DNA of 54,460 nucleotides from the sequence record MW584207.1, one strand, 5' to 3'. This document shows, piece after piece, positions 1 through 4,762 of this stretch (the stretch's first letter is position 1; each line of letters begins with the position of its first letter). Source of the stretch: Mycobacterium phage prophiGD12-2. A program made the translations under genes and the position numbers. The notes below the pieces were generated by a model. That model was not told the DNA's origin. It saw nothing but the letters and a program-made list of their open reading frames with translations, and did not search any database.

Positions 1-7
1 CAGAGAC

Positions 8-36
8 AAAAAATCCCAGGTCGTCTGACCTGGGAT
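8..36 (-). terminator. Rho-independent terminator downstream of the tRNA (minus strand)
   Basis: Perfect 10-bp stem at 13-22 and 27-36 with a 4-nt loop. An A-run at 8-13 gives a U-tract on the minus strand. Confidence 0.6.
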
Positions 37-38
37 TA

Positions 39-76
39 TGGTGGAGCTAAGGGGACTCGAACCCCTGACCCCCACA
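39..76 (-). tRNA. tRNA 3' fragment of 38 nt: T-arm, acceptor 3' strand, discriminator A and CCA. The isotype is probably Ala. The gene is not complete.
   Basis: The reverse complement reads TGTGG-GGGTC-AGGGG-TTCGAGT-CCCCT-TAGCTCC-A-CCA. Acceptor 3' strand UAGCUCC pairs with GGGGCUA and implies a G3:U70 pair. Sequence upstream of position 76 cannot form the rest of a tRNA. Confidence 0.55.
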
Positions 77-109
77 ATCGCAAAAATGTGGGCTATCAGA
101 GGTAGCGAT

Positions 110-202
110 GGATAGTCAAGAGTAGTCAAAATAGGCGTTGCTACCTGCGGATACTTCGACTTTTGGATAGTCTTGGATAGTCGAACGTAGTTGCGAATAG
201 TC
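110..202 (+). promoter_or_regulatory. Five direct repeats of GRRTAGTC (GGATAGTC three times, GAGTAGTC, GAATAGTC). These are candidate arm-type recombinase or RDF binding sites of the attP arm.
   Basis: Copies lie at 110-117, 120-127, 165-172, 175-182 and 195-202, between the att core and the int 3' end. Confidence 0.5.
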
Positions 203-212
203 GCCACGTCGC

Positions 213-240
213 GCGAATTAGTGTCCCTTTAGTGTCCCCT
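213..240. repeat. 28-bp element GCGAATTAGTGTCCCTTTAGTGTCCCCT, copy 1
   Basis: Identical copy at 54340-54367 near attR. Contains tandem TAGTGTCCC. Confidence 0.6.
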
Positions 241-262
241 ACCGGAGGCCGCCGAACGACCC

Positions 263-1585
263 TCAGGGCTCACCCGCGATGGCCTGGTGCAGTGCTGTCG
301 CGGCTTCGCTGTGCGCCCGTCCACGCGCCATATAGAAGCGCTGAGTCATGGACGGATCGGCGTGCCCCAGCACATCAGCAGCAACGCGCGCAGACAAACC
401 GGCGTCATCGAGGATGGTCGCTACGGCCTTGCGGAAGCTGTGGGCCGTGATGCTGGCGGGCAGTCCCAGCGCCGACCGCACGCGACGCCACTGGGCCGCG
501 ACGTTGTTCGGGTCTCGGGGCGTCCAGTTCTCGGACGGGAACACCAAGTCTTCGTAGTCTGCCGATACCGGACGCGGGTCAACTAGTCGGCGCTCGGCAA
601 GTCGCCTCTTCCGAAGCTTAAGAGCATCGATGGCGAACTGGGGCAACGCAATCTCATTGTCAGAGCCCTTGGTGTCATCCTCAATGGGCGCCAGCACCAA
701 GCCTTTGCCTTTGACTCGGATCAACTTCCGAGTGGGACGCATGACACCGGCTTTCAGGTCCAGCTCGGGCCAGGTCGTTGCCAGCGATTGACTGCGGCGG
801 TGGCTAGTGGCAATCAGCATCACAATCCAGTCGACAATATCGGCGTCCGCGCAGAACTCGGCAACCGTTGGCGGCGTGTAGCTTCCGACGCTCTTCTCGC
901 GCTCAGCCTTGGCCAGAATCCGGGGGCATGGCAGGTCCGAGGTCCGTACCGCGATGAGGATGTCGCGCACCTCGTCAACGGTGAGCTGGCTCGCACCGCC
1001 GCGCTTGGCGCCCTTGCGTCGCGCTAGCTTCACTTCGCGCAGCGGGTTGACCGTGATGGCGCCGTTGCTCATGCGGATCGCGTAGTTGTACATGCCGGAC
1101 AGCACTGTTCGCGACGACTTCGCCGCCCCGGCTCCACGCGTGTCAGCGACCGTTGTCAGGAACTTCTCCATGACCGGGGTTGGCGCCTCCATGAGGCGCC
1201 TGTGGCCGAATGCGGAGTCAAATCCCTTGGCCTCAAAGTCATATCGGTCAAGGGTGGCAGGCGCCCTCCCCTGATCTACAAGGTGCGGCCGGTAGTGCTC
1301 GTAATACAGCGCTCGGATGGTGGTCTCTGTCGACAGCTCCGCATCGAGCACCGATACCGAAAGGTCGGAGGCAGCGGCCAGCACCGCGTCACGGGCCCGC
1401 GCGCCATCCCTATCGGGTACAGGGCGTCCGCGTGAATCGTTGCGTGGCGGACTTACTCGCTTGACCTTGCGACGCTTTCCGCTGGCGTCACGAACCCGCA
1501 CGATGGCCAGCCACACTCCTGGTCGCAACTCCGTTAGATCCACGTCACCCGGCACCCCAATGGGTCGTGGCGGTCTACCTCGCAT
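263..1585 (-). CDS. int: Tyrosine integrase (site-specific recombinase, phage integrase family)
   Basis: C-terminal HSFRK...LGH...RFY catalytic motif pattern. Adjacent to attL. 440 aa. Confidence 0.85.
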   Translation of the reverse strand: MRGRPPRPIGVPGDVDLTELRPGVWLAIVRVRDASGKRRKVKRVSPPRNDSRGRPVPDRDGARARDAVLAAASDLSVSVLDAELSTETTIRALYYEHYRPHLVDQGRAPATLDRYDFEAKGFDSAFGHRRLMEAPTPVMEKFLTTVADTRGAGAAKSSRTVLSGMYNYAIRMSNGAITVNPLREVKLARRKGAKRGGASQLTVDEVRDILIAVRTSDLPCPRILAKAEREKSVGSYTPPTVAEFCADADIVDWIVMLIATSHRRSQSLATTWPELDLKAGVMRPTRKLIRVKGKGLVLAPIEDDTKGSDNEIALPQFAIDALKLRKRRLAERRLVDPRPVSADYEDLVFPSENWTPRDPNNVAAQWRRVRSALGLPASITAHSFRKAVATILDDAGLSARVAADVLGHADPSMTQRFYMARGRAHSEAATALHQAIAGEP

Positions 1586-1723
1586 GTCTCATTGCCTTTC
1601 GCTCTTTGTCGTGCATACGGACCAAATTGGCCCCGTGGGTGCGCAGGTGCTCCGGGTGTGGGCGGGTCTGGCTACAATGTGAGTAATTAGGGCAGCGACC
1701 AGCGAATATAGGAGGTGATGGAG

Positions 1724-2284
1724 ATGGCGAGAGCAGTGGATGTAGGTCAGTACGTGTACGACCGAAAAGGCTGGATCGATGCATGGCGTCTCCAGAAGCT
1801 CGTCTATTTCGCACACGCCTGGAGCTTGGCGTGGGATGGGCGTGGACTATTCGACTCGGACGTGGAGGCATGGCCCGACGGACCTGTTGAACGGGAGCTG
1901 TACGCGGCCAATAAGTACGGACGCGACCGCTGGAATTCAACCAAGCTGGTTGAGGCTGACACCTCAAGACTTACCCCCCGCCAGATTGCGGTCATTGATG
2001 CGGTTATCGAGCATTACGGCAATTGGACGCGGCAGGAACTAATCGACGCGAGTCATACACCTGCCTGGTTGGCAACGCGTGCAGGCGCGGCACGCCATGC
2101 ACAGGGTGACGTGATTCCAGTGGGTGATATCCGTCGTTGGCATACGCGCGCGGCGCTAGCAGGAAAAGACACGCCGAAGCCACCAGCCGACCACGTCGGG
2201 GTGGTACGGGACGTTTCTGGTGATTTGGTTGACGCGCATATCGATCGGTGGCGTGGCGTTCTCGACCTACTCGCCGAGCGTTGA
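1724..2284 (+). CDS. Panacea-domain (DUF4065, SocA/GepA-like) putative antitoxin
   Basis: Motif WRLQKLVYFAHAWSLAW...EAWPDGPV matches the KLQKLLYFA...W..GPV Panacea signature. SD AGGAGG lies 8 nt upstream of ATG 1724. The longest ORF starts at 1715. Confidence 0.7.
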   Translation: MARAVDVGQYVYDRKGWIDAWRLQKLVYFAHAWSLAWDGRGLFDSDVEAWPDGPVERELYAANKYGRDRWNSTKLVEADTSRLTPRQIAVIDAVIEHYGNWTRQELIDASHTPAWLATRAGAARHAQGDVIPVGDIRRWHTRAALAGKDTPKPPADHVGVVRDVSGDLVDAHIDRWRGVLDLLAER

Positions 2285-2652
2285 CGTTTTGCATACCCGT
2301 GGAGGCTGCGATTCTGATCAATCGCAGCCTCCCTCGTACTACGCATGCGGTGACTAACCGGGGCCAATTGGAGTCAGCATTGGCGCGCCCAATGCACGTG
2401 TTTGGCGACCAGTTGGTGTATCCAACCCTCATCGAGCGGGCCGCAGCCTTGTTGCACGGGGTGGCATCGGCACACGCGTTCTTCGACGGCAACAAGAGAA
2501 CGGCATGGCTGTGCACTTCGATGTACTTGGACCGTGAGGGCTCTCCGCTACAAGGTATCCCCGATATCGATGCCGCTGACTTTGTGGTCGATGTTGTACT
2601 GGGTCGTATTGGCCATGAGGATGTTTCGGTATGGCTTCTCGACCGAACGTAG
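2281..2652 (+). CDS. doc: Doc (death-on-curing) Fic-fold toxin
   Basis: HAFFDGNKRTA Doc/Fic motif. TTG start 2281 overlaps the upstream stop as TTGA, and its N terminus (CIPVEAAIL) aligns with P1 Doc (HISPEELIAL). Alternative GTG starts at 2248 and 2299. Confidence 0.75.
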   Translation: MTFCIPVEAAILINRSLPRTTHAVTNRGQLESALARPMHVFGDQLVYPTLIERAAALLHGVASAHAFFDGNKRTAWLCTSMYLDREGSPLQGIPDIDAADFVVDVVLGRIGHEDVSVWLLDRT

Positions 2653-2667
2653 CGGGCGGGCAATGGC

Positions 2668-2874
2668 CTACCTCGCATGCTTCCCCCTTATCCGTCGCAG
2701 CCGGTTGACGGTCTGTGCGTCGATCGCCAGCGCCTCTGGCGTCTCGATGATGGCGTTCAACTTCTGGTAGTAGCGGACCGGCGATAAACCGAAACGCTCG
2801 CGTATTACTTCATGCTTGGCGCCGGATGCAGGCCACCAAATGCGTTCCATATCAAGGGCTTCAACCGTGTTCAT
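2668..2874 (-). CDS. DUF3263-like small protein
   Basis: 68 aa. W..SGAKE.AIRE.FG.S..RYYQ.LNA.I..PEA pattern typical of actinobacterial DUF3263. Last gene of the repressor operon. Confidence 0.55.
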   Translation of the reverse strand: MNTVEALDMERIWWPASGAKHEVIRERFGLSPVRYYQKLNAIIETPEALAIDAQTVNRLRRIRGKHAR

Positions 2875-3374
2875 GGGCGTTGCGGGTCTTCAACACGGTC
2901 AGCGAGCCAGTCGCGCTCAGCCGGGGTTAGGGTCTGGCGTCGCACCCGGACGGTGTGAACGTCGGTCCAAAGCTCTTCGGCCAGTTCGTAATCATCGTTG
3001 GTCCATTGCAGCCCACGCAGCAGAGCGGGTAGCGGAATGAGTCGGCGTGCCGCCAGCACGTCCACATAGTGCTCTTCACGGGCGCGGTGGATGACAGGCG
3101 CAATGCCCCGGTCAACGTGGATCAATTCATGCGTCAAGGTCGAGCGGCGCTCAGCCTGCGTGAGGCTCTTGCACAGCCAGATGGTGTTGCCCTTGATCAG
3201 TCCGGCCACTCCCCGGGGCAGGACGTGATCGCAGGAAACAGCGATGTGTGGATAGTGCTCGGCGAGCGTTCGCCATGGATGCCAATGGTTCGTGATCATG
3301 GTGCGAGACGCTAGAACAGGCCACCGACAAATACGGCGCTGACCAGGAATTACAGGGGCGTAACTAAGCGCCAT
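2871..3374 (-). CDS. ImmA/IrrE-family Zn metallopeptidase (putative anti-repressor protease)
   Basis: HELIH HEXXH motif. Located downstream of the XRE repressor in the same operon. An alternative ATG start lies at 3299. Confidence 0.65.
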   Translation of the reverse strand: MALSYAPVIPGQRRICRWPVLASRTMITNHWHPWRTLAEHYPHIAVSCDHVLPRGVAGLIKGNTIWLCKSLTQAERRSTLTHELIHVDRGIAPVIHRAREEHYVDVLAARRLIPLPALLRGLQWTNDDYELAEELWTDVHTVRVRRQTLTPAERDWLADRVEDPQRP

Positions 3375-3440
3375 GCTCGACTACGCAAGGGTTGACAAGG
3401 GCATGTCCAGCCTGAACGGCTGTTGCTAGCCCCTGGCCGG

Positions 3441-4655
3441 TCATTGGTCTGCAAGTTCGGCGATGCGCACGCCGTATCCACCGTGCCGGGTGTCGGCGAC
3501 CGTGTAGCCAGCATTGCGGACTGCGTTGTCGACGTTCTCCTTGGCCTCCCCAAGCCGCAGCAGTTCTTCGCGAGCGAGCCTTTCCGCTTCCTTGCGTGTG
3601 GGCGCGACCATTCGGCCGAAGTTGCTGTCAGTACGTGGGTCGTAGAACTCGACCTCGAATCCCCCCGGCTCGCGCTTGAGCGACTGCGAGGCCGACTTCA
3701 CCTTGCGGATGCGGACGCCATACCCACTGCCGCTGGTGTCCGCTGTGTGCCGACCCGCGTCTTTGATGGCGGCGTCGACCATCCGGGGCTTTTCACCTTG
3801 GGCAATCAGAAATTCACGCGCATACGCTTCTGCCTCAGCGCGAGAGGTAAATTCGCGTCTGGTCCTGTCCCCTGAGCTTAAGTCCTGGAGGGACAGAACA
3901 TACAGTCCGTCACTGTCATCGTCGTTGCGTTCGCGGTCGGATTGTTTCTCGCGACGCGAGGCCGCTACGCCGAGATCTTCGAGATCGGGCGGCGGTCCGG
4001 CCGGACGGCGGCGGGCTATGGAGGTGACGTTGCCGGAACGGGTGGATGGCAGTTTCAGGGCTTCTGGATCCATTGCCCGTGCAAGTAGCGGCGTGAATAG
4101 TTCCAGGACCTTATCGCTGGTTGCCGGGTCTGCAGCCGCGATGGTCTTCATAATCTGCTGACCGAAGAAGATTCGCGCGTTTCGTTCCTCAGCCCTGGAT
4201 TCTGCTAAGGCTTGCTCAAGTTCAACGGGGGCAGGGAACCTGGAGTTTGCATCCGCGACCCCCTGAAAGTATCCGATTTGGCCCTCCATGAGGGTTTCCA
4301 GCTTGTCAATCTTCTCCATCTTGTCTAGAAGAGATGAAAGTGTTTGCGCCACAAGCTCAATGGGGACACCCGGATTGAGCATCGGGTGCTCCCGTTCGAG
4401 GTCCTCCCAGAGCGTGGGGGCGCCCCCGTCTAGCACGTCGTCTATCGACCCGGGCGCCCACTTGATGGCCTGTTCGATGGCGTCCTTGTTGCGTGACAAA
4501 AGATTAGAGCGCTTCCCGGTCTCTATGTCACTGATCAGGCGTAAGGAGACGCCAGCCGCCTCGGCAAGCTCGGCCGCAGTATGCAGCTGCACCTCAGGGT
4601 GCTTACGGCGCGCACGGATCAGGGAACCTAACCGTTTCTCATTGTCATCAGTCAT
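3441..4655 (-). CDS. XRE-family HTH repressor (putative prophage immunity repressor), 404 aa, with C-terminal tandem repeat domain
   Basis: N-terminal HTH AAELAEAAGVSLRLISDIETGKR. SD GAGGAGG lies 6 nt upstream of ATG 4655. C-terminal duplicated repeat of about 50 aa ends in ADT..G.YGVRI. The longest ORF runs to 4745. Confidence 0.7.
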   Translation of the reverse strand: MTDDNEKRLGSLIRARRKHPEVQLHTAAELAEAAGVSLRLISDIETGKRSNLLSRNKDAIEQAIKWAPGSIDDVLDGGAPTLWEDLEREHPMLNPGVPIELVAQTLSSLLDKMEKIDKLETLMEGQIGYFQGVADANSRFPAPVELEQALAESRAEERNARIFFGQQIMKTIAAADPATSDKVLELFTPLLARAMDPEALKLPSTRSGNVTSIARRRPAGPPPDLEDLGVAASRREKQSDRERNDDDSDGLYVLSLQDLSSGDRTRREFTSRAEAEAYAREFLIAQGEKPRMVDAAIKDAGRHTADTSGSGYGVRIRKVKSASQSLKREPGGFEVEFYDPRTDSNFGRMVAPTRKEAERLAREELLRLGEAKENVDNAVRNAGYTVADTRHGGYGVRIAELADQ

Positions 4656-4708
4656 CGACAGCACCTCCTCACGTATCGGAAAACATTTTCGCATAATCCG
4701 ACGCATCG

Positions 4709-4729
4709 TTGCGCACTCCACGTGCGCAA
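4709..4729. promoter_or_regulatory. Palindromic candidate operator TTGCGCAC-TCCAC-GTGCGCAA in the divergent switch region
   Basis: Perfect 8-bp inverted repeat arms with a 5-bp spacer, between the repressor and cro-like starts. Confidence 0.5.
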
Positions 4730-4762
4730 ACGTCAGAATATGCATTTCTTACGCGTTTCTGC

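What the first reader, a model, noticed from the sequence alone, without database searches (positions are those of the whole stretch)
1724..2652. Panacea-domain (DUF4065) antitoxin paired with a Doc toxin via a TTGA start/stop overlap
The upstream ORF carries the Panacea signature (WRLQKLVYFAHAWSLAW...EAWPDGPV). The downstream ORF carries the Doc active-site motif HAFFDGNKRTA, and its N terminus aligns residue-for-residue with P1 Doc if it starts at TTG 2281, overlapping the upstream TGA. Doc is classically neutralised by Phd, so this would be a Doc toxin domesticated by a Panacea antitoxin in a lysogeny module.
Basis: partly seen in the sequence, partly recalled or inferred. Interest (0 to 1): 0.75.

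Follow-up and report, generated by a model that had tools for sequence, protein, structure and literature searches.

The report
Prophage Panacea–Doc toxin–antitoxin gene pair
A Mycobacteroides abscessus prophage carries, next to its integrase, a two-gene cassette in which a Doc-type toxin is paired with a Panacea-domain antitoxin; the reading is correct, but this pairing has already been described and tested experimentally in Corynebacterium, so it is an ordinary new member of a known family.

Summary
ORF 1724-2284 (186 aa) matches Pfam Panacea (E 6e-19). ORF 2281-2652 (123 aa) matches Fic/Doc (E 4e-14) and just passes NCBIfam DOC_P1. It carries the Doc-type motif HAFFDGNKRTA, and its model matches P1 Doc over the full length (TM 0.80). 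The TTG start inside a TTGA overlap is well supported. The same NTGA junction (ATG, GTG or TTG) occurs in 7 of 8 related loci, and in six of them an in-frame stop lies 3-18 nt upstream, which excludes any earlier start.

Kurata et al. 2022 validated a Corynebacterium doosanense PanA:Doc pair. Ernits et al. 2023 showed that its C-terminal "Phd-C" helices, not the Panacea core, neutralise Doc. The window's PanA is homologous over its full length to a listed member of that cluster (C. phocae). It has a conserved C-terminal helix (RWxxxLxLLAxR) that co-occurs with a Doc neighbour: 7 of 8 loci with the tail, 0 of 72 without. M. abscessus prophage prophiGD04-1 already carries a diverged copy, annotated with toxin and antitoxin labels swapped.

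The cassette (1589-2681) is a discrete integrase-proximal insert, absent from the closest relative prophiGD05-1. Verdict: a new member of a known kind, of low interest.

The parts
1589..2681 (+). Whole PanA-Doc cassette, defined as the segment that differs from the related prophage prophiGD05-1.
   Evidence: blastn of the window against prophiGD05-1: window 3-1588 matches 3-1588, and window 2682-3355 matches 2057-2730. The stretch between has no counterpart. Megablast of 1600-2700 against 50,697 phage records finds nothing. The cassette coding region is identical in 8 M. abscessus contexts.
1589..1723 (+). Cassette-specific upstream region carrying the Shine-Dalgarno AGGAGG (1710-1715). The promoter is presumed to lie here but was not located.
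   Evidence: Sequence read. The sigma-70 consensus scan found 0 sites. No direct or inverted repeats were found.
1724..2284 (+). panA: 186-aa Panacea-domain antitoxin, coordinates including the TGA stop.
   Evidence: Pfam PF13274 E 6.2e-19. PHROG 1281 at 2.3e-24. 100% identical to an NCBI M. abscessus 'possible prophage protein'. AF2 model pLDDT 91.6, pTM 0.83.
1790..2068 (+). Panacea (DUF4065) core as matched by Pfam, residues 23-115. The folded core extends to about residue 146 in the model.
2162..2218 (+). Pro-rich linker, residues 147-165, predicted with lower confidence.
   Evidence: AF2 pLDDT about 70-77 in these blocks. P151 and P154 are invariant in alignment A2.
2219..2278 (+). C-terminal amphipathic helix, residues 166-185, with motif RWxxxLxLLAxR. 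This is the inferred Doc-neutralising element, equivalent to 'Phd-C'.
   Evidence: AF2 helix H166-185. W176 is invariant across 70 homologues; L180 and L183 are invariant in A2 and nearly invariant (90% or more) in A3. The tail co-occurs with an adjacent Doc in 7 of 8 loci, against 0 of 72 without it. The role is inferred from C. doosanense PanA 155-188 (PMC10440598).
2281..2284 (+). TTGA start/stop overlap (TTG start of doc, TGA stop of panA), a translational-coupling junction.
   Evidence: The same NTGA junction occurs in L001 (TTGA), L004 (ATGA), L005 (GTGA), L006 (ATGA), L009 (GTGA), L061 (GTGA) and prophiGD04-1 (ATGA). In six of these an in-frame stop lies 3-18 nt upstream.
2281..2652 (+). 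doc: 123-aa Doc-type Fic-fold toxin, coordinates including the TAG stop.
   Evidence: Pfam Fic E 4e-14. TIGR01550 38.7 bits against 38.65. PHROG 577 'Doc-like toxin'. AF2 pLDDT 94; best PDB matches are P1 Doc 3DD7/3K33/3KH2, TM 0.75-0.80.
2473..2505 (+). Active-site motif HAFFDGNKRTA (H65-A75), the Doc-type variant with Lys in place of the second Gly of HxFx(D/E)GNGRxxR.
   Evidence: Sequence. N71 K72 R73 T74 A75 are invariant in 44 homologues. For contrast, the canonical motif HPFRDGNGRMAR occurs in the second Fic protein of the same window.

Best explanation
This is a two-gene type II toxin-antitoxin cassette of the PanA:Doc class, carried as an integrase-proximal accessory insert in a Mycobacteroides abscessus prophage. 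The two genes are translationally coupled: ribosomes terminating panA at TGA 2282-2284 reinitiate at the overlapping TTG 2281, so the toxin is made only together with the antitoxin. Doc is a small Fic-fold enzyme with the Doc-specific HxFxDGNKR active site. By homology it phosphorylates EF-Tu and stops translation (inferred). PanA binds Doc directly. Its conserved C-terminal helix (residues 166-185, RWxxxLxLLAxR) is inferred to lie over the Doc active-site groove, as the Phd C-terminus does on P1 Doc and as the 'Phd-C' tail does in the validated C. doosanense PanA. The Panacea core would be an accessory, possibly sensory or stability-determining, domain. The biological role is the least certain step. 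The most likely role is a lysogen-expressed module that aborts infection by other phages and/or stabilises the prophage. What is shown here is domain identity, motif, fold, gene order and overlap, family membership, tail-Doc co-occurrence and cassette boundaries. What is inferred is toxicity, the EF-Tu target, neutralisation by the tail, expression in lysogens and the defence role.
For: The Doc-type motif is invariant across the family. The Doc model matches P1 Doc over its full length at TM 0.80. The PanA model shows a Panacea core, a Pro-rich linker and a 20-residue C-terminal helix. Among 80 Panacea loci from 185,579 species genomes, 7 of 8 whose PanA has the tail have Doc immediately downstream, and the 8th has a decayed Doc remnant. 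None of the 72 loci without the tail has an adjacent Doc. The NTGA overlap is conserved with ATG, GTG or TTG. C. phocae WP_075732548.1 is my hit P0127, with profile E 3.4e-67, 39% identity and 100% coverage of the window PanA. It is listed in Kurata's Dataset S1 in toxin cluster pT7 'Fic', order A|T, overlap -4, together with the validated C. doosanense pair. For that pair Doc is toxic and inhibits translation, PanA forms a complex with it, and PanA 155-188 fused to SUMO suffices to neutralise. The cassette is a discrete swap next to the integrase. It is 100% conserved across prophages with different repressors.
Against: There is no experimental data for this locus. The C. doosanense sequences could not be retrieved, so the link to them is transitive, through C. 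phocae and cluster membership. hhalign finds no sequence similarity between the PanA tail profile and P1 Phd (probability 0.3%), so 'Phd-C-like' rests on published structural analogy only. No promoter or operator was detected upstream, and PanA has no recognisable DNA-binding domain, so autoregulation is unexplained. TIGR01550 is passed by only 0.05 bits. PADLOC has no model that recognises PanA, and Doc matches only candidate systems, so a defence role is conjecture.
Confidence: 0.85

Rival explanations
1. The globular Panacea core itself, not the C-terminal helix, is the element that binds and neutralises Doc.
For: Ernits et al. report that in some PanAT systems substitutions in the Panacea core abolish neutralisation. 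The core is the best conserved part of the protein.
Against: In the homologous C. doosanense system the core is not predicted to contact Doc. Truncating the tail abolishes neutralisation, and the tail fused to SUMO suffices. Here the tail, not the core, is what co-varies with a Doc partner: 7 of 8 against 0 of 72.
Confidence: 0.08
2. PanA acts like SocA (type VI TA): a proteolytic adaptor that delivers Doc to ClpXP, rather than an inhibitor that binds it stably.
For: The only NCBIfam hit for PanA is NF047745 'SocA family antitoxin'. Pfam names the domain SocA_Panacea.
Against: The score is 46.6 bits against a cutoff of 190 and covers only the shared domain. The partner is Doc, not SocB. Stable PanA:Doc complex formation was shown for the C. 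doosanense homologue.
Confidence: 0.04
3. The roles are reversed: the Panacea ('GepA-like') protein is the toxin and the Fic/Doc protein is the antitoxin, as annotated for the homologous genes 3 and 2 of prophiGD04-1 and prophi68-1.
For: The GenBank annotation of MW584209 and MW584157 reads 'GepA-like toxin' and 'antitoxin'.
Against: Those two genes are Panacea plus Fic/Doc with the same tail motif and an ATGA overlap. In the tested homologue Doc is the toxin and PanA the antitoxin. The upstream-antitoxin order and the intact kinase motif fit the usual polarity.
Confidence: 0.02
4. The downstream protein is an AMPylating Fic enzyme, or a catalytically dead one, rather than an EF-Tu kinase.
For: It shares the Fic fold. 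Some family members carry Gln in place of the catalytic His (P0053, P0054, P0056, P0057). The enzymatic activity has not been tested.
Against: The motif is HAFFDGNKRTA, with the Doc-specific Lys and without the GNGRxxR anion hole. Established knowledge (Castro-Roa 2013, cited) links this to inverted ATP binding and kinase activity. The His is present here. The best structural matches are P1 Doc, ahead of all AMPylators. A canonical Fic (HPFRDGNGRMAR) elsewhere in the window shows the contrast.
Confidence: 0.07
5. Doc starts at GTG 2248 (134 aa, as some pipelines call it) or at GTG 2299 (117 aa, as PGAP calls homologues), not at TTG 2281.
For: Automated calls give 134 aa, 90 aa or no gene for the identical sequence. 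117-aa calls are common among homologues. GTG 2248 is open in frame in the window.
Against: Residues 2-6 (TFCxP / xYCLx) are conserved down to about 45% identity, so translation must begin at or before 2281. In L001, L004, L005, L006, L009 and prophiGD04-1 an in-frame stop 3-18 nt upstream leaves the NTG in the NTGA overlap as the first possible start. The codon at that position is always ATG, GTG or TTG.
Confidence: 0.1

Closest known systems
Corynebacterium doosanense PanA:Doc (PanAT toxin cluster pT7; 'Doc_D6:PanA_Phd-C'), Kurata et al. 2022 PNAS (PMC8832971) and Ernits et al. 2023 PNAS (PMC10440598)
   Same: An actinobacterial pair in antitoxin-then-toxin order with overlapping genes. PanA is about 186-188 aa and consists of a Panacea core plus a C-terminal helical tail. 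The toxin is small and Doc-type. The window PanA is homologous over its full length (39% identity) to C. phocae WP_075732548.1, which Kurata lists in the same cluster.
   Different: The host and context differ: this is an M. abscessus prophage, integrase-proximal, whereas the C. doosanense locus was flagged 'NotPhage'. Sequence identity to the Corynebacterium members is only about 39-45%. The start codon is TTG. Nothing has been tested experimentally here. Direct comparison with the C. doosanense sequences was not possible.
Phd-Doc of bacteriophage P1 (PDB 3K33, 3DD7, 3KH2)
   Same: The toxin has the same fold (TM 0.75-0.80), the same size (123 against 126 aa) and the same HxFxD(A/G)NKR motif. 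Both sit on a temperate phage. The antitoxin gene is upstream, and neutralisation by a C-terminal helix is inferred.
   Different: The antitoxin is unrelated. It has no Phd/YefM domain, and no sequence similarity was detected between the PanA tail and Phd. Toxin identity is only about 25%.
prophiGD04-1 / prophi68-1 genes 3 and 2 (MW584209, MW584157), an att-proximal TA system of M. abscessus prophages (Dedrick et al. 2021, PMC8092301)
   Same: A Panacea plus Fic/Doc pair with a 4-nt ATGA overlap, the same tail motif (EWSETLEWLATR), the same host species and a position at the prophage end.
   Different: Identity is only 31% for PanA and 40% for Doc. It lies in a different prophage, at the other kind of end, next to WXG genes. 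It is annotated with toxin and antitoxin labels swapped.
SocAB (type VI TA, Caulobacter)
   Same: It shares the Panacea/DUF4065 domain.
   Different: The window PanA falls far below the SocA equivalog cutoff (46.6 against 190 bits). The partner is Doc rather than SocB. The mechanism is expected to be direct binding rather than ClpXP delivery.

Membership tests
Panacea / DUF4065 domain (Pfam PF13274) | Profile match above the Pfam gathering score | tested here: met
   69.4 bits against 25.7, E 6.2e-19, profile positions 1-112 of 113.
Fic/Doc fold (Pfam PF02661) | Profile match above the gathering score, and a Fic fold | tested here: met
   53.7 bits against 24. AF2 model pLDDT 94; the top PDB matches are all Doc or Fic proteins.
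Doc subfamily (TIGR01550 DOC_P1) | Score at or above the NCBIfam cutoff of 38.65 bits | tested here: met
   38.7 bits for the 123-aa product and 38.3 for the 134-aa reading. The pass is marginal.
Doc subfamily | Active-site motif HxFxD(A/G)NKR, with Lys replacing the second Gly of the Fic motif | tested here: met
   HAFFDGNKRTA at residues 65-75. NKRTA is invariant in 44 homologues.
Doc subfamily | Full-length structural correspondence to P1 Doc | tested here: met
   Foldseek against 3DD7_A: TM 0.80, rmsd 2.5 A, about 126 columns.
Doc subfamily | Phosphorylates EF-Tu and arrests translation | not testable with these tools
   This needs an in vivo toxicity assay and a phosphorylation assay.
PanAT, Doc:PanA_Phd-C class (Kurata cluster pT7) | Antitoxin-then-toxin order with overlapping or abutting genes | tested here: met
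   TTGA 4-nt overlap. Dataset S1 lists A|T with -4 for C. bovis, C. pyruviciproducens and C. phocae, and -1 for C. doosanense.
PanAT, Doc:PanA_Phd-C class (Kurata cluster pT7) | PanA homologous to a listed member of the cluster | tested here: met
   P0127 is C. phocae WP_075732548.1: profile E 3.4e-67, 39% identity, 100% coverage. It is listed in pT7. Comparison with C. doosanense itself was not possible.
PanAT, Doc:PanA_Phd-C class (Kurata cluster pT7) | C-terminal helical extension beyond the Panacea core (C. doosanense residues 155-188 of 188) | tested here: met
   AF2 helix 166-185 follows a Pro-rich linker in a 186-aa protein. The tail motif is conserved. The tail co-occurs with Doc in 7 of 8 loci, against 0 of 72.
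PanAT, Doc:PanA_Phd-C class (Kurata cluster pT7) | The tail is necessary and sufficient for neutralisation, and a PanA:Doc complex forms | not testable with these tools
Co-expression and pull-down experiments are needed.
Phd-C element (similarity of the tail to the C-terminus of P1 Phd) | Detectable sequence similarity to Phd residues 51-73 | tested here: not met
   hhalign of the tail profile A4 against P1 Phd: probability 0.3%, 1 aligned column. The Phd sequence was verified against PDB 3HRY. The published similarity is structural, which I could not test.
Classical Phd/YefM-Doc module | Upstream antitoxin with a Phd/YefM domain | tested here: not met
   Panacea is the only Pfam hit for the upstream protein at E up to 0.1.
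SocAB type VI TA | SocA equivalog score (190 bits or more) and a SocB partner | tested here: not met
   NF047745 scores 46.6 bits. The partner is Doc.
Known anti-phage defence systems (PADLOC-DB 2.0) | Both proteins match models of one defined system | tested here: not met
   PanA has no hit. Doc hits only the Fic-like parts of the candidate systems PDC-S23, PDC-M59B and others.

The most novel reading that the evidence does not exclude
The integrase-proximal PanA-Doc cassette is a prophage-encoded abortive-infection defence. In this reading the Panacea core senses a protein of a superinfecting mycobacteriophage and releases the C-terminal helix from Doc, shutting down translation. The cassette is exchanged between M. 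abscessus prophages with different immunity regions, so it would be a mobile determinant of strain-to-strain variation in susceptibility to therapeutic phages. It would also offer a tractable system for testing the proposed sensory role of Panacea.
Probability: 0.3. Interest if true: 0.5.

Novelty: new member of a known kind. Interest (0 to 1): 0.2.

Why it matters
There are three modest reasons. First, it documents that the validated Corynebacterium-type PanA:Doc module also circulates as an exchangeable cassette in Mycobacteroides abscessus prophages, a species for which phage therapy is in clinical use. Prophage-borne TA or defence genes may influence phage susceptibility there. Second, it has practical value for annotation. 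The identical doc gene is called as 134 aa, as 90 aa, or not at all in public assemblies, and homologues are called as 117 aa. In prophiGD04-1 the toxin and antitoxin labels are swapped. The conserved NTGA junction gives a simple rule for the correct start. Third, the strict co-occurrence of the RWxxxLxLLAxR tail with Doc supports the published idea of modular 'linear' neutralising elements attached to Panacea. None of this would surprise a TA specialist.

Tried and rejected
The following led nowhere or were rejected.

- Megablast of the cassette against 50,697 phage records found no match. Only protein-level relatives exist there.
- A PDB sequence search with the PanA profile found nothing better than E about 1. 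Foldseek of the PanA model against the PDB gave no hit with E up to 0.001, and the top hits (PPAR-gamma and others, TM 0.15) are meaningless. I found no solved Panacea-like structure.
- hhalign of the PanA tail against P1 Phd showed no similarity.
- I tried to obtain the C. doosanense PanA sequence with a profile search and by looking up cluster members of ten 188-aa hits. It was not among them, so the link is made through C. phocae instead.
- The first PDB search with the Doc alignment included P1 Doc itself as a row, so it is inflated. I repeated it with the single sequence: 9VZC 4e-10 and 3K33 5e-4.
- The promoter scan found 0 sites, and the one terminator-like hit is on the minus strand inside panA and at chance level. 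A repeat search upstream of panA found nothing, so there is no operator evidence.
- I considered DUF3263 (2668-2874, convergent) as a third component and rejected it. It is conserved in prophiGD05-1, which lacks the cassette.
- The 224-aa antisense ORF 2004-2678 (-) was not pursued. It lies wholly inside the two well-supported genes in a high-GC sequence.
Full report
**Observation**

The window is high-GC DNA from a Mycobacteroides abscessus prophage. The upstream protein is 100% identical to an NCBI M. abscessus 'possible prophage protein'. The first 25 kb are about 94% identical, over 75% of their length, to Mycobacterium phage prophiGD05-1.

At the stated coordinates there are two same-strand ORFs.

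- ORF A runs 1724-2284 and encodes 186 aa. AGGAGG at 1710-1715 lies 8 nt upstream of ATG 1724. It matches Pfam SocA_Panacea at 69.4 bits, E 6.2e-19, and PHROG 1281.
- ORF B ends at 2652. It matches Pfam Fic/DOC at E 4e-14 and PHROG 577 'Doc-like toxin' at 7.2e-21. As the 123-aa product it just passes NCBIfam TIGR01550 DOC_P1, 38.7 against 38.65 bits.
- The motif HAFFDGNKRTA is encoded at 2473-2505. NKRTA is invariant in 44 homologues.
- TTG 2281-2283 overlaps TGA 2282-2284.

**Start codon of doc**

Three in-frame starts are possible: GTG 2248, TTG 2281 and GTG 2299. Public pipelines call the identical sequence as 134 aa, as 90 aa, or not at all. Homologues are often called as 117 aa.

Two lines of comparative evidence settle on 2281.

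- Residues 2-6 (TFCIP, or xYCLx in distant relatives) are conserved down to about 45% identity. This excludes 2299.
- In related loci the codon overlapping the panA TGA is always a start codon: TTGA in L001, ATGA in L004, L006 and prophiGD04-1, and GTGA in L005, L009 and L061. In six of them an in-frame stop lies 3-18 nt upstream, so no earlier start exists.

The AF2 model of the 123-aa product (pLDDT 94) superposes on P1 Doc over its whole length. Against 3DD7_A it gives TM 0.80, rmsd 2.5 A and 25% identity.

**What the antitoxin looks like**

The AF2 model of PanA was built from 70 homologues and has pLDDT 91.6 and pTM 0.83. It shows three parts:

- a helical Panacea core up to about residue 146;
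- a Pro-rich, lower-confidence linker (residues 147-165);
- a 20-residue C-terminal helix (residues 166-185).

The tail carries the motif RW(R/S)xxLxLLAxR. W176 is invariant; L180 and L183 are invariant in A2 and nearly invariant (90% or more) in A3.

I scanned one genome for each of 185,579 species with the PanA profile and kept the best 80 loci. Eight have a PanA that matches through the tail. Seven of these have Doc immediately downstream on the same strand. The eighth (L003) has a short decayed Doc remnant. None of the 72 loci whose Panacea protein lacks this tail has an adjacent Doc. These loci are not phylogenetically independent, since the tailed ones are all from Actinomycetes (Corynebacterium, Mycobacterium, Blastococcus, Microbacterium and an unclassified Actinomycetes MAG). 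Even so, the tail rather than the Panacea core tracks the Doc partner.

**Comparison with what is known**

The pairing is not new.

- Kurata et al. 2022 (PMC8832971) found Fic/Doc to be the second most common recognisable toxin domain next to Panacea (n = 32).
- They validated the Corynebacterium doosanense pair. Doc is toxic, inhibits protein synthesis, is neutralised by PanA and forms a complex with it.
- Ernits et al. 2023 (PMC10440598) showed that in this pair two C-terminal helices of PanA ('Phd-C', residues 155-188 of 188) contact the Doc active site. The Panacea core is not predicted to take part. Removing the tail abolishes neutralisation, and SUMO fused to Phd-C suffices.

Kurata's Dataset S1 places the C. 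doosanense pair in toxin cluster pT7. That cluster is almost entirely actinobacterial: Corynebacterium, Bifidobacteriales, Demequina, Brevibacterium and Mycolicibacter. It includes C. phocae WP_075732548.1 with a Fic partner, order A|T and overlap -4. That accession is my hit P0127, with profile E 3.4e-67, 39% identity and 100% coverage of the window PanA. The window pair therefore belongs to this published family.

I could not retrieve the C. doosanense sequences themselves, so the link is transitive. I also found no sequence similarity between the PanA tail and P1 Phd (hhalign probability 0.3%).

**Previous sightings in M. abscessus prophages**

tblastn of PanA against phage records finds prophiGD04-1 and prophi68-1 at 31% identity over the full length. 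Their genes 3 and 2 are Panacea plus Fic/Doc. They have the same tail motif (EWSETLEWLATR), an HPFHEGNKRTA motif and an ATGA overlap.

Dedrick et al. 2021 (PMC8092301) name prophiGD04-1 as one of two prophages with an att-proximal TA system. The GenBank labels are 'GepA-like toxin' for the Panacea protein and 'antitoxin' for the Fic/Doc protein. Given the experimental polarity in C. doosanense, these labels are very probably swapped.

**Genomic context**

In prophiGD05-1 the integrase occupies the same coordinates (263-1585). It is followed by a 151-aa hypothetical gene, an HTH/DUF3263 gene, a further gene and the repressor.

blastn shows that window 3-1588 and 2682-3355 are collinear with prophiGD05-1 3-1588 and 2057-2730. 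So 1589-2681, which comprises the panA-doc genes with their own upstream region, is a discrete 1.1-kb cassette replacing that hypothetical gene.

The same cassette, with identical coding sequence, sits beside the integrase in at least eight M. abscessus contigs. Their repressor genes differ, from 222 to 443 aa. This is the mosaic pattern typical of integrase-proximal accessory or defence loci.

DUF3263 is not part of the cassette. It lies at 2668-2874, is convergent with doc, and is conserved in prophiGD05-1, which lacks the cassette.

**Mechanism**

The following is shown here:

- domain identities;
- the Doc-type motif and fold;
- gene order and the conserved coupling junction;
- the tail architecture and its co-occurrence with Doc;
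- family membership;
- cassette boundaries.

The following is inferred from the tested homologue and from P1 Doc:

- Doc phosphorylates EF-Tu and arrests translation.
- PanA binds it stoichiometrically, with helix 166-185 occluding the active-site groove.
- Termination-reinitiation at TTGA keeps toxin synthesis dependent on antitoxin translation.

The role of the Panacea core is open; Ernits et al. propose that it is sensory. The biological role of the cassette, whether abortive-infection defence or prophage stabilisation, is also open. PADLOC has no model that recognises PanA. I found no promoter or operator signal upstream, and PanA has no recognisable DNA-binding domain.

**Rivals**

- Neutralisation by the core is disfavoured by the tail-Doc co-variation and by the published truncation data.
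- A SocA-like proteolytic-adaptor (type VI) mechanism is disfavoured. The SocA score is 46.6 against a cutoff of 190 bits, the partner is not SocB, and stable complexes were reported for the homologue.
- Reversed toxin and antitoxin roles contradict the experimental polarity.
- AMPylation instead of phosphorylation is disfavoured by the Lys-containing motif. A canonical Fic protein elsewhere in the same window (48962-50167, HPFRDGNGRMAR) shows the contrast.

**Verdict**

The system is a new member, 31-45% identical, of an already described and experimentally characterised PanA:Doc family, and a diverged copy has already been noted in M. abscessus prophages. Its value lies in annotation: the correct doc start and the correct toxin and antitoxin labels. 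It is also a candidate prophage defence cassette in a species treated with phage therapy. Interest is about 0.2.

Noticed in passing
L081 (MW584209.1 prophiGD04-1) locus 2501-3453; also MW584157.1 prophi68-1: Genes 3 and 2 are annotated 'GepA-like toxin' and 'antitoxin'. They are in fact a Panacea-domain protein (191 aa, tail EWSETLEWLATR) and a Doc-type Fic protein (126 aa, HPFHEGNKRTA) with an ATGA overlap. The toxin and antitoxin labels are very probably swapped.
   Followed up: yes
window 2281-2652; L083-L090: The identical doc ORF is called as 134 aa (L083, L084), as 90 aa (L085), or not called at all (L086-L090) by the pipelines behind the public assemblies. Homologues are often called as 117 aa. 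This is a systematic start-codon and gene-calling problem caused by the TTG/NTGA overlap.
   Followed up: yes
window 48962-50167 (-): There is a second Fic-domain protein in the same prophage, 401 aa, with the canonical AMPylator motif HPFRDGNGRMAR. It matches Pfam Fic at 4.1e-13 and weakly matches the NCBIfam adenylyltransferase Fic. It has no obvious partner gene that I examined.
   Followed up: partly
window 51215-53901 (-): A polymorphic-toxin-like cassette lies near the right (attR) end. It consists of a 600-aa protein with a C-terminal Endonuclea_NS_2 nuclease domain (4.7e-27), followed by two YezG-like immunity-type ORFs (51655-52089 and 51215-51643). The upstream ORF 53729-54109 has no Pfam hit. 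This resembles the PT-Imm systems described for M. abscessus prophages.
   Followed up: partly
window 2871-4745 (-): The immunity region differs from that of prophiGD05-1. It has a metalloprotease-like ORF (PHROG 87 at 6.3e-19, with a weak Peptidase_M78/IrrE match) next to a 434-aa HTH protein whose long C-terminal part has no assignment beyond a very weak DUF2188 hit. This may be an ImmA/ImmR-type arrangement. Gene callers give the protease 142 aa rather than 167.
   Followed up: partly
L003 (Corynebacterium sp. AOP40-9SA-29) 3923-4700: A full-length PanA with the Doc-type tail is followed only by a short remnant of the Doc N-terminus ('IPWDCLGSEAVIMVDASAH*'). This is an apparently orphaned antitoxin left after toxin decay.
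   Followed up: partly
alignment A1: P0053, P0054, P0056, P0057: A subgroup of PanA-associated Doc homologues has Gln in place of the catalytic His (…TTQxFxDGNKRTA). This suggests altered or lost activity in part of the family.
   Followed up: no
L082 (prophiGD05-1) 1596-2051 (-): The 151-aa gene that occupies the cassette position in prophiGD05-1 has no Pfam or PADLOC match. It may be an alternative accessory or defence gene at the same integrase-proximal slot.
   Followed up: partly
window 50401-51165 (-): A 254-aa protein with DUF2510 and DUF4352 domains lies between the Fic gene and the immunity-like ORFs. Its function is unknown.
   Followed up: no
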